The notes beneath the pieces were generated by a model. The model ran no database searches. It was given only the letters and a program-made list of their open reading frames with translations, and was not told where the DNA came from. Below are positions 5,065 through 6,111 of a stretch of DNA of 64,000 bases, piece by piece. The DNA comes from Candidatus Woesebacteria bacterium. Its GTDB lineage: Bacteria > Patescibacteriota > Microgenomatia > UBA8517. The stretch lies in assembly GCA_020060565.1 (NCBI GenBank), contig JAGVAE010000002.1, positions 179,255-243,254 on the forward strand. Direction: 5' to 3'. Made by a program: the position numbers and the translations under genes. Each line of letters starts with the position of its first letter. The first letter of the stretch is position 1.

Positions 5065-6111
5065 ATGGAATCTGCTGCCCAAGAAATTAAAACACTGATT
5101 GAAAGAATTACCAAGGCTGATCTTCCTGATAGACTTCGAGAGTTGGTTTTGATTCGTCTTAATCAGTTAACAAAATTAACCAACTCCCCATCTTTCTTAC
5201 CTGAATTTGACAGTATTGTTCGCTATATCGATTGGATAACAATACTCCCGTGGAGTAAAAGAACCCAGGATCAGCTCGATTTGGAGAATGCAAAGAAAAT
5301 TTTGGAACAACACCACTACGGACTTGAAGATATTAAGACCCGTGTCTTGGAGTATATGAGTGTGATGAAACTTAAATTGGAAAAAGGTGAGAGTAAAGAT
5401 ATATATCGTGCTCCCATTCTTTGTTTTGTTGGTTTAGTGGGAACTGGTAAAACCACAATTGCCTATTCAATTGCAGAAGCTTTGGGGCGTCCCATTGCAC
5501 GTATTCCATTTGGGGGTATGGGAGATCCATTGGATCTTAGGGGTCAGAGTAGAATGCACCCTGAGGCAGAACCTGGAAAAGTTATTAAAGCCTTAAGAGA
5601 TACCCAAAGCAAAAATCCTGTAATACTTCTTGATGAAATTGATAGGGTAACCGAGCAAGGAAGAAGTTCCATTATGGGAGTTTTGGTTGAACTACTTGAT
5701 CCTAAACAGAACTATGCCTATGTTGATCATTACATAGATTTTCCATTTGATTTATCAGAAACTCTTTTTATAGCAACCGCGAATAATACAACTAGCATTG
5801 CAACGGCAGTTATGGACAGATTGGAACCAATTTCCATGCCCAGCTACACCGATCAGGAAAAAATTGTAATAGGTCAGAAGTACATCTTACCAGCAACTAT
5901 GAAAGCTTCGGGATTACCCGAAGGGGCACTTAAGATTAGTGATGATGTTTGGGCAAATATAGTCAGACCCTTAGGGTATGATGGAGGTATTCGTACACTT
6001 GAGCGCAATATTGATGGAGTTGTTAGAAAAGTTGCAAGAATGTTGGTTGAAGGTAAAGCTAAGGAAGTCAGTGTAACCCCCGAAAACGTCAAAACATTCT
6101 TGCCACAGTAA
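5065..6111 (+). CDS. Lon-derived AAA+ ATPase core (no LON N-domain, no S16 protease domain)
   Basis: 348 aa. It aligns colinearly with the E. coli Lon linker and AAA+ module: [17 protein letters not shown]…[21 protein letters not shown]; a Walker A-like GLVGTGKTT; a Walker B [41 protein letters not shown]; and [10 protein letters not shown] (sensor-2). It ends exactly where the Lon protease domain would begin. Confidence 0.8.
   Translation: [348 protein letters not shown]

What the first reader, a model, noticed from the sequence alone, without database searches (positions are those of the whole stretch)
5065..6111. Stand-alone Lon AAA+ core: Lon homolog with the N-domain and the S16 protease domain cleanly removed
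The 348-aa ORF aligns residue-for-residue with the Lon linker-helix plus AAA+ module. Matching segments: [17 protein letters not shown]…[20 protein letters not shown]; GxxGxGKT; [48 protein letters not shown]. It starts right after the pnp stop and stops exactly at the AAA+/protease boundary. No S16 (DGPSAG…K) module follows in any frame, since the next ORF is DprA-like. The clean domain boundaries and short intergenic gaps argue against pseudogene decay. This may be a Lon-derived unfoldase, chaperone or regulator, possibly working with the adjacent SLOG protein and phosphoesterase. A Lon ATPase without its protease is not a standard annotated family.
Basis: partly seen in the sequence, partly recalled or inferred. 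Interest (0 to 1): 0.62.

Follow-up and report, generated by a model that had tools for sequence, protein, structure and literature searches.

The report
Lon ATPase without its protease
This gene encodes only the ATP-burning motor of the Lon protease, with no protease attached. It belongs to a strongly conserved, apparently undescribed protein family of tiny-genome CPR bacteria whose changed central pore suggests a non-degradative job.

Summary
ORF 5065-6111(+) encodes 348 aa that match LonA residues ~245-580: a three-helix bundle, the AAA+ core and the Lon lid. No Lon N-domain or S16 protease domain is found anywhere in the 64-kb window, or within 8-10 kb of 22 related genes.

It is not a fragment. 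More than 240 90%-identity clusters from Microgenomates (Woese-, Levy-, Shapirobacteria) and Dojkabacteria/WS6 share this architecture at 342-470 aa. The sampled protease-less representatives form one clade, and synonymous sites are saturated while pN is 0.09.

ATPase residues are invariant (Walker A/B, sensor-1 Asn, arginine finger, sensor-2 Arg). The Lon pore-1 motif RRTY[VI]GAMPG is replaced by an acidic x-P-[DE]-A-E-P-G loop with no conserved aromatic residue, and pore-2 also differs. I therefore read it as a ring ATPase that is probably not a classical threading unfoldase.

It sits in a housekeeping operon (rpsO-pnp-X-...-rnj). Elsewhere it is coupled to family-4 UDG or lies near groESL. 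The SLOG/phosphoesterase partnership is not supported, because the SLOG gene is a lineage-specific insert.

Whether an S16 peptidase is encoded elsewhere in these genomes could not be tested.

Verdict: new variant of a known kind, moderate interest.

The parts
5065..6111 (+). Complete gene for the protease-less, N-domain-less Lon-type AAA+ ATPase (348 aa plus stop codon)
   Evidence: ORF; Pfam AAA + Lon_lid only; TIGR00763 positions 252-574 of 795; PDB LonA matches; AF2 model with pLDDT 87.5 superposes on LONP1/LonA AAA+ modules at TM 0.78-0.87
5065..5244 (+). N-terminal three-helix bundle (aa 1-60), equivalent to the helical bundle that precedes the AAA+ core in LonA
   Evidence: Helices 2-17, 22-37 and 44-60 in the model. 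Aligns to B. subtilis LonA construct residues 6-~60 and E. coli Lon residues 244 onward
5281..5838 (+). AAA+ large alpha/beta subdomain (aa ~73-258)
   Evidence: Pfam AAA aa 119-255; secondary structure
5431..5457 (+). Walker A motif GLVGTGKTT (LonA has GPPGVGKTS); the Lys-Thr pair is invariant in the family
5542..5577 (+). Pore-1 loop equivalent [12 protein letters not shown]. The LonA motif RRTY[VI]GAMPG is replaced; the Tyr position is His here and H/R/F/E/S/Q/N across the family; the acidic [DE]-A-E-P-G part is conserved
   Evidence: Motif table of 173 Lon AAA modules; position statistics; alignments A1 and A2
5623..5643 (+). Walker B motif ILLDEID (Asp190 and Glu191 invariant). It is followed by a diverged pore-2 segment [14 protein letters not shown] where LonA has K..D.RGDP.SALL
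5770..5826 (+). Sensor-1 (IATANN, Asn240) and the trans arginine finger (DRLE, Arg252), both invariant
5851..6075 (+). Lon-type lid (small alpha subdomain, aa ~263-337), including sensor-2 GIRTLER (Arg310, nt 5986-6006)
   Evidence: Pfam Lon_lid aa 280-334; invariant Arg310
2700..5024 (+). pnp (PNPase), the upstream gene. There is a 40-nt gap and no terminator-like site before the ATPase gene. This upstream position is conserved in 13 of 23 family loci
7153..7770 (+). Family-4 uracil-DNA glycosylase. It is a recurrent downstream neighbour of the ATPase gene in both subfamilies and is start/stop-coupled to it in three other lineages
   Evidence: TIGR00758 at 180 bits against a cut-off of 125; synteny
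7770..9431 (+). RNase J. It is the conserved downstream gene and directly abuts the ATPase gene in many relatives. A terminator-like hairpin at 9423-9435 ends the putative operon

Best explanation
The gene encodes a genuine member of a monophyletic family that is under strong purifying selection. The family descends from LonA and keeps only the three-helix bundle, the AAA+ core and the lid. It is present across Microgenomates-type and Dojkabacteria/WS6 CPR bacteria.

Shown:
- The architecture.
- Its conservation.
- The absence of any S16 or Lon N-domain in the window and around 22 relatives.
- Intact ATP-binding and hydrolysis residues, including the arginine finger.
- Family-wide loss of the Tyr-hydrophobic pore-1 loop and the RGDP pore-2 loop. 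The pore-1 loop is replaced by a conserved acidic P-[DE]-A-E-P-G loop.

Inferred:
- Because the arginine finger acts in trans, the protein assembles into an ATP-hydrolysing ring, as Lon does.
- Because the threading paddles are gone and no peptidase is attached, it most likely does not feed polypeptides into a protease. It more likely works as a non-degradative, ATP-driven protein (or ribonucleoprotein) remodeller or chaperone-like switch. Clients would be engaged through the retained three-helix bundle and the acidic pore rim.
- It is expressed constitutively from a core housekeeping operon (rpsO-pnp-X-...-rnj).
For: Architecture.

No protease or N-domain: tblastn with Lon_C and Lon-N queries finds nothing in the window or in 22 family loci. 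All 240 listed homologue clusters have precomputed Pfam AAA/Lon_lid only.

Family status: about 20 representatives of 50%-identity clusters end 2-8 aa after the lid. The 19 sampled protease-less representatives form one clade with no LonA inside it in an NJ tree.

Selection: pS 0.79 (saturated) against pN 0.089 versus the Woesebacteria orthologue. Amino-acid identity (89%) is higher than for PNPase (83%), FtsK (80%) or RNase J (53%) in the same pair.

Catalytic residues: K129, T130, D190, E191, N240, R252 and R310 are invariant across 39-55%-identical members.

Pore loops: (table). T164 and Y165 of LonA are conserved, whereas the family is variable at both positions.

Chaperone-type neighbours: groES-groEL lies within 6 kb in 5 of 23 loci, in two different arrangements; clpB and dnaJ are also nearby.

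Operon: no promoter-like or terminator-like site between pnp and the gene.
Against: - No biochemical data exist, and ring formation and ATPase activity are inferred from motifs only.
- In LonA the protease domain contributes much of the hexamer interface (established knowledge, not tested here), so an isolated module might not form a stable ring.
- Some members carry Phe or Tyr at or next to the pore-1 position (P0139, P0140, P0145, P0162), so threading is not excluded for every member.
- The whole genomes could not be searched, so a peptidase partner encoded elsewhere is not excluded.
- The most widespread neighbours (PNPase, RNase J, UDG4, FtsK) act on nucleic acids, not on proteins.
- GroESL proximity in small collinear genomes may be coincidental.
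Confidence: 0.5

Rival explanations
1. Split Lon protease. The protein is the ATPase half of a two-gene Lon and docks onto a separately encoded S16 (or other) peptidase ring, as ClpX does with ClpP or HslU with HslV.
For: The ATPase site is intact. The protein ends exactly at the AAA+/protease junction in every member. Other HCLR-clade ATPases work in trans with peptidases (established knowledge). Whole genomes were not searchable, so a distant partner gene cannot be excluded.
Against: No S16-like sequence lies in the 64-kb window or within 8-10 kb of 22 family genes from diverse lineages. The 240 listed homologue clusters contain no fused intermediates. The Tyr-hydrophobic pore-1 loop that every protease-coupled translocase uses is not conserved. 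No C-terminal docking tail or inserted loop is conserved across the family; C-termini vary and some carry only low-complexity extensions.
Confidence: 0.15
2. Nucleic-acid-linked ATPase. The Lon AAA+ module, which binds DNA and RNA in some Lons, has been retained as an accessory of RNA decay (PNPase/RNase J) or of DNA repair and segregation (UDG4/FtsK).
For: The conserved gene order pnp-X-rnj, with X abutting or overlapping rnj (L003-L006, L008, L013, L082, L085), is seen. Start/stop overlap with family-4 UDG occurs in three separate lineages (L012, L086, L089). The PNPase here carries an Arg/Gly-rich tail that an acidic pore could engage. DNA and RNA binding by Lon is established knowledge and was not tested here.
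Against: Much of the synteny is a block inherited by related small genomes (IF2...FtsK), so it is weak evidence of function. The pore loop is acidic and the module pI is mostly 5.2-7 (mostly acidic, whereas canonical LonA modules average pI 7.1), which argues against nucleic acid passing through the ring. In Dojkabacteria-type genomes the gene is not next to pnp, rnj or UDG.
Confidence: 0.2
3. Functional module with the adjacent SLOG-like protein and YfcE-type phosphoesterase.
For: The three genes are adjacent with short gaps in this window. The phosphoesterase also follows the ATPase gene in L002 and lies near it in L001.
Against: The SLOG-like ORF has no homologue in any of 22 family loci. 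In the nearest relative an unrelated ORF sits in its place. The phosphoesterase is absent from 20 of 22 loci. The SLOG assignment itself is sub-threshold.
Confidence: 0.03
4. Decaying pseudogene, gene fragment or assembly artefact of a full-length lon.
For: None beyond the missing domains.
Against: Hundreds of independent assemblies give the same 348-aa product at 84-97% identity. More distant members have the same ends. Purifying selection is strong. There are no Lon remnants in flanking DNA in any frame.
Confidence: 0.01

Closest known systems
LonA (endopeptidase La; e.g. B. subtilis LonA 3M6A, E. coli Lon 6U5Z/6N2I, human LONP1 7KSM)
   Same: About 40% identical and collinear over the three-helix bundle, AAA+ alpha/beta subdomain and Lon lid. 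It shares Walker A/B, sensor-1, arginine finger and sensor-2, and the predicted fold superposes at TM 0.78-0.87.
   Different: It has no PUA-like N-domain, no long coiled-coil, and no S16 Ser-Lys protease domain. The pore-1 Tyr-Val/Ile and pore-2 RGDP motifs are replaced. Walker A reads G-L-x-G-T-GKT instead of GPPGVGKT.
LonC (Meiothermus-type Lon with a degenerate, ATPase-dead AAA-like domain)
   Same: It is a Lon derivative in which one of the two activities has been dropped (established knowledge).
   Different: It is the mirror image. LonC keeps the protease and loses ATPase function; this family keeps the ATPase residues and loses the protease.
Stand-alone HCLR-clade ring ATPases (ClpX, HslU)
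   Same: It is a single AAA+ module of the same clade, encoded without a fused peptidase, and has a trans arginine finger.
   Different: ClpX and HslU have a conserved aromatic pore-1 loop (GYVG) and defined peptidase-docking elements. Neither is found here.
Non-proteolytic derivatives of AAA+ proteases (e.g. plant FtsHi pseudo-proteases, PMC8197885)
   Same: It is an AAA+ protease lineage that lost proteolysis but is retained under selection for another role.
   Different: FtsHi proteins keep an inactivated protease domain. Here the domain is deleted outright and the pore loops are remodelled.

Membership tests
LonA / endopeptidase La (TIGR00763, NF008053) | N-terminal LON substrate-binding (PUA-like) domain, PF02190 | tested here: not met
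   No Pfam hit. tblastn with two LonA N-regions and five full-length LonA proteins finds nothing in the 64-kb window.
LonA / endopeptidase La (TIGR00763, NF008053) | LonA-type AAA+ module with Lon lid | tested here: met
   Pfam AAA + Lon_lid; TIGR00763 positions 252-574 at 1.2e-95; PDB LonA 7e-80; fold TM 0.78-0.87.
LonA / endopeptidase La (TIGR00763, NF008053) | C-terminal S16 Ser-Lys protease domain, PF05362 | tested here: not met
   The ORF stops at the lid, and there is no Lon_C in Pfam. No Lon_C-like sequence occurs in any frame of the window or of 22 related loci.
LonA / endopeptidase La (TIGR00763, NF008053) | Whole-protein score reaches the curated equivalog cut-off | tested here: not met
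   321.7 bits against 608 (TIGR00763); 231.9 against 891 (NF008053).
LonA / endopeptidase La (TIGR00763, NF008053) | Aromatic-hydrophobic pore-1 loop (R-R-T-Y-[VI]-G) | tested here: not met
   The query has S-R-M-H-P-E. The family is H/R/F/E/S/Q/N at the Tyr position.
LonB (archaeal/membrane Lon) | Transmembrane insertion between Walker A and B, plus an S16 domain | tested here: not met
   The alignment to LonA is collinear with no insertion between Walker A and B, and there is no Lon_C.
LonC | Degenerate Walker motifs together with an S16 protease domain | tested here: not met
   Walker A Lys, Walker B Asp-Glu, sensor and arginine-finger residues are invariant; the protease domain is absent.
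ClpX/HslU-type stand-alone unfoldases that serve a separate peptidase | Conserved aromatic pore-1 loop and a conserved peptidase-docking element | tested here: not met
   There is no conserved aromatic residue. C-termini vary and carry no shared motif beyond close relatives; extensions are low-complexity.
ClpX/HslU-type stand-alone unfoldases that serve a separate peptidase | A partner peptidase encoded in the same genome | not testable with these tools
   Only 64 kb of this genome and +/-8-10 kb around relatives could be read, and none was found there. Whole-genome scans were not possible.
Protease-less Lon-AAA family of CPR bacteria (unnamed; defined here) | Three-helix bundle + AAA+ + lid only; ends 2-8 aa after the lid; G-[LVI]-x-G-x-GKT; [DE]-A-E-P-G pore loop | tested here: met
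   The query carries all of these features and falls inside the monophyletic group of 19 representatives.

The most novel reading that the evidence does not exclude
Microgenomates- and Dojkabacteria-type CPR bacteria may have no Lon protease at all. Instead they would keep a Lon-derived, non-proteolytic ring ATPase with an acidic pore as a core, possibly essential, factor. It would act on basic, disordered segments such as the Arg/Gly-rich tail of the PNPase encoded immediately upstream, and so assemble or remodel an RNA-decay (PNPase/RNase J) or DNA-repair complex. That would be a new functional class of AAA+ machine born from a protease.
Probability: 0.12. Interest if true: 0.75.

Novelty: new variant of a known kind. 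Interest (0 to 1): 0.55.

Why it matters
Lon is the textbook case of an AAA+ motor permanently fused to its protease. The known natural variants keep the protease: LonB, and LonC, which has lost ATPase function.

A large, strongly conserved lineage that does the opposite shows that the Lon motor has a selectable function of its own. This lineage keeps a catalytically intact motor, deletes both the substrate-recognition N-domain and the protease, and rewrites the pore loops.

The family offers a natural separation-of-function system for the long-debated protease-independent ('chaperone') activity of Lon. It also bears on how proteostasis is organised in the minimal genomes of CPR bacteria.

Practically, many database entries call these proteins 'ATP-dependent Lon protease' or 'Lon protease 1'. 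That label is wrong for metabolic or proteostasis reconstructions of these organisms.

Tried and rejected
1. Frameshift or assembly error hiding an S16 domain. Rejected: tblastn with seven Lon_C/Lon-N queries and five full-length LonA proteins finds only nt 5068-6102.

2. Fragment of a longer Lon. Rejected: relatives have a uniform length.

3. Defence-system ATPase. PADLOC gave only generic weak AAA hits.

4. Heat-shock (HrcA/CIRCE) regulation. No CIRCE element is in the window or in the groES-proximal intergenic regions of L009 and L011.

5. SLOG partnership. Rejected on synteny.

6. The top-scoring hits in the 1.84-billion representative search were long proteins with 2-4 tandem Lon AAA modules plus one S16 domain. 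I considered whether the stand-alone gene is a split-off extra ring of such a protein. In the NJ tree all tandem modules fall outside the protease-less clade, and they scored high only because several modules add up.

7. Functional clues from C-terminal extensions of sister members (P0160, P0170). These are only low-complexity Ser/Asn/Gln-rich tails with no Pfam domain.

8. Looking for CPR full-length LonA among the nearest LonA clusters. The names found were Deinococcus and Clostridiales, or none, so this was uninformative.

9. Literature. Six searches found no paper describing a protease-less Lon or discussing Lon in Patescibacteria. One apparent hit was a false match to 'long'.

10. Whole-genome presence or absence of S16 could not be done.

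Full report
**1. The observation**

The ORF is real and matches the description. It runs from an ATG at 5065 to a TAA at 6109-6111 on the + strand and encodes 348 aa. It begins 40 nt after the pnp stop codon (5024), and the next ORF starts at 6141.

- Pfam assigns AAA (aa 119-255) and Lon_lid (aa 280-334). It finds no Lon_C and no LON_substr_bdg.
- The NCBIfam LonA equivalogs match strongly but only partly. TIGR00763 gives 1.2e-95 over model positions 252-574 of 795; NF008053 covers 244-579 of 784. Both scores are far below their full-length cut-offs.
- Against the PDB, the best match is B. subtilis LonA (3M6A, 7e-80, query aa 4-346). Human LONP1, Thermus, Meiothermus, Yersinia and E. coli Lon follow, always through their AAA+ modules.
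- An AlphaFold2 model (pLDDT 87.5, pTM 0.81) shows three N-terminal helices, an AAA+ alpha/beta subdomain and a helical lid. It superposes on LONP1 and LonA chains at TM 0.78-0.87.

**2.

- tblastn with five Lon_C domains and two Lon N-regions found nothing in any frame of the 64-kb window.
- Five full-length LonA proteins hit the window only at nt 5068-6102, and only with their residues ~248-615.
- The protein is not a fragment of a longer Lon that is intact in relatives. A search of 5.8 billion proteins returned 120 listed 90%-identity clusters at 84-97% identity, 116 of them exactly 348 aa and the other four 350-352 aa, all with AAA + Lon_lid as their only Pfam domains. They come from Woesebacteria and Microgenomates assemblies, including near-complete genomes.
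- A second search seeded with a 43%-identical member (P0150) gave another 120 clusters of 342-470 aa. None has Lon_C or the Lon N-domain. They are named Dojkabacteria, WS6 or 'Patescibacteria group'.

**3. A distinct family under strong selection**

- In an exhaustive HMMER search of 1.84 billion cluster representatives, about 20 representatives at 39-69% identity end 2-8 residues after the lid.
- In an NJ tree of 173 Lon AAA modules plus the query, the 19 protease-less representatives form one clade with no LonA inside it.
- Against the Woesebacteria orthologue in complete genome CP066686.1, synonymous sites are saturated (pS 0.79) while pN is 0.089.
- At the protein level the gene is 89% identical in that pair. 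PNPase is 83%, FtsK 80%, the IF2 C-terminal part 69% and RNase J 53% in the same pair.
- Some members carry Gln/Pro/Ser/Asn-rich low-complexity extensions at the N- or C-terminus, with no recognisable domain.

**4. What is kept and what is changed**

The following are invariant across members only 39-55% identical to the query:

- Walker A Lys129 and Thr130
- Walker B Asp190 and Glu191
- sensor-1 Asn240
- the arginine finger Arg252 (DRLE)
- sensor-2 Arg310 (GIRTLER)

An arginine finger acts in trans, so its conservation implies an oligomeric, ATP-hydrolysing assembly. This is inference.

The elements that grip and thread polypeptide in Lon are not kept.

- Nearly all single-module LonA sequences read RGHRRTY[VI]GAMPG at pore loop 1 and DK..D.RGDP.SALLE after Walker B.
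- The family reads RGxS[RK]-x-x-(P)-[DE]-A-E-P-G and D[RK]V....[RAD]IMGVLLE.
- At the Tyr position the family has H, R, F, E, S, Q or N, which is unconstrained. The acidic [DE]-A-E is conserved.
- Walker A also carries a family signature, G-[LVI]-x-G-[TVI]-GKT, where LonA has GPPGVGKT.
- The module pI is mostly 5.2-7 (mostly acidic, whereas canonical LonA modules average pI 7.1).

**5. Genomic context**

Within the window, no promoter-like or terminator-like site separates pnp from the gene. A promoter-like site precedes rpsO (2329-2357) and a terminator-like hairpin follows rnj (9423-9435). This is consistent with one long housekeeping operon, though it rests on weak consensus evidence.

Across the window plus 22 family loci:

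| Neighbour | Loci (of 23) | Notes |
|---|---|---|
| pnp upstream | 13 | |
| RNase J downstream | 12 | Often directly abutting; overlapping by 7 nt in L013 |
| Family-4 uracil-DNA glycosylase downstream (TIGR00758 above cut-off) | 7 | Spans both subfamilies; start/stop overlap in L012, L086 and L089 |
| groES-groEL within 6 kb | 5 | Divergent in L009 and L011; same strand in L083, L087 and L088; clpB follows in L087; dnaJ is nearby in L086 |

None of the 22 loci contains any Lon_C or Lon N-domain sequence. The 177-aa SLOG-like ORF next to the gene in this window has no homologue in any of the 22 loci. In the closest relative an unrelated 178-aa ORF occupies that position. The YfcE-type phosphoesterase recurs only in L001 and L002. 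The proposed partnership with these two genes is therefore not supported.

**6. Most likely mechanism**

My best reading (confidence about 0.5) is a ring-forming, ATP-hydrolysing but non-degradative Lon derivative. It would act as a protein or ribonucleoprotein remodeller, or as a chaperone-like switch. Clients would be engaged through the retained three-helix bundle and an acidic pore rim rather than by classical aromatic-paddle threading.

- Shown: the architecture, its conservation, the motif pattern and the genomic context.
- Inferred: ring assembly, lack of threading, and the client type.

Rivals:

- **Split Lon with a peptidase encoded elsewhere (0.15).** This is disfavoured by the lost pore loops, by the lack of any conserved docking element, and by the absence of an S16 gene near 23 loci. 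It is not excluded, because whole genomes could not be scanned.
- **Nucleic-acid-linked accessory ATPase for RNA decay or DNA repair (0.2).** This is suggested by the pnp-X-rnj order and the UDG4 coupling. It is weakened by the acidic pore, by the lack of a basic pI, and by inherited block synteny.
- **SLOG/phosphoesterase module (0.03).**
- **Pseudogene or artefact (0.01).**

**7. Comparison with what is known**

It resembles the AAA+ module of LonA but fails LonA membership on four points: the N-domain, the S16 domain, the curated score cut-offs and the pore-1 motif. It is not LonB, because it has no membrane insertion and no protease. It is the mirror image of LonC, which is ATPase-dead with its protease retained. 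It is not a ClpX/HslU-type partner ATPase by the criteria I could test.

The nearest conceptual analogues are AAA+ protease lineages that lost proteolysis but persist, such as the plant FtsHi proteins (PMC8197885).

Six full-text searches found no description of a protease-less Lon family or of Lon in Patescibacteria. Absence from that library is not proof of novelty. Databases label these proteins 'AAA family ATPase' or, misleadingly, 'ATP-dependent Lon protease' or 'Lon protease 1'.

**8. Verdict**

The architecture and the non-pseudogene status are right. The 'unfoldase' label and the SLOG partnership are doubtful or unsupported.
- Novelty: a new variant of a known kind.
- Interest is moderate (0.55). 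For AAA+ protease specialists, a deeply conserved Lon motor stripped of its protease and carrying a rewritten pore is surprising and gives a natural handle on Lon's protease-independent activity. Its function remains inferred, and the key genome-wide check for a trans peptidase is still open.

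Noticed in passing
window 4770-5021 (C-terminal ~84 aa of PNPase, gene 2700-5024): The PNPase ends in an Arg/Gly/Ser-rich low-complexity tail (…RSGGGYRGGDRGGFSSQGRSSFGRSGGRSFDRGRSSFGGGRSNF…), which is unusual for a bacterial PNPase. It lies immediately upstream of the ATPase with the acidic pore loop. 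The tail region did not align between relatives, although their PNPases are also 750-790 aa.
   Followed up: partly
Not in the window: proteins P0121-P0125, P0127-P0129, P0131-P0138: These are long proteins (about 890-1675 aa) with two to four tandem Lon-type AAA+ modules followed by a single S16 protease domain. Several have an N-terminal signal or transmembrane-like segment, and some modules have degenerate Walker or pore motifs. I am not aware of a described multi-tier Lon of this kind.
   Followed up: partly
L012 3379-3460, L086 9029, L089 9077-9080; window 7153-7770: In three separate CPR lineages the protease-less Lon ATPase gene overlaps the start of a family-4 uracil-DNA glycosylase gene, and UDG4 follows it within three genes in 7 of 23 loci. 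There is no known functional link between Lon and UDG.
   Followed up: partly
L009 7754-9832, L011 7881-9877, L083 6347-8382, L087 13302-15254, L088 14722-16668: groES-groEL lies within 6 kb of the ATPase gene in five loci. It is divergently transcribed with a shared intergenic region in two of them. clpB follows groEL in L087. No CIRCE element was found.
   Followed up: partly
window 6141-6674: This is a 177-aa ORF with weak, sub-threshold similarity to the DprA/SLOG fold (Pfam 23.7 bits against a cut-off of 29.6). It has no homologue in any of 22 syntenic loci, so it looks like a lineage-specific insertion between the ATPase gene and the phosphoesterase gene.
   Followed up: yes
window 1015-1959; L086 3560-4663: A 314-aa ORF between infB and rpsO is conserved in this position across Microgenomates loci but has no significant Pfam or NCBIfam match. 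In L086 a DHH-family protein lies next to infB, so the ORF may be a diverged NrnA-like DHH protein.
   Followed up: no
L001 6309-9911: In the complete Woesebacteria genome CP066686.1, a 1200-aa gene with no Pfam hit is inserted between pnp and the ATPase gene. It is absent from the window.
   Followed up: no
L002-L004, L006, L008, L010, L011 (record titles): Several MAG records that carry typical Microgenomates-type synteny (rpsO-pnp-X-rnj-ftsK) are titled 'uncultured Gammaproteobacteria' or 'Pseudomonadales' in the public record. This is probably a taxonomic mislabel of CPR bins.
   Followed up: no
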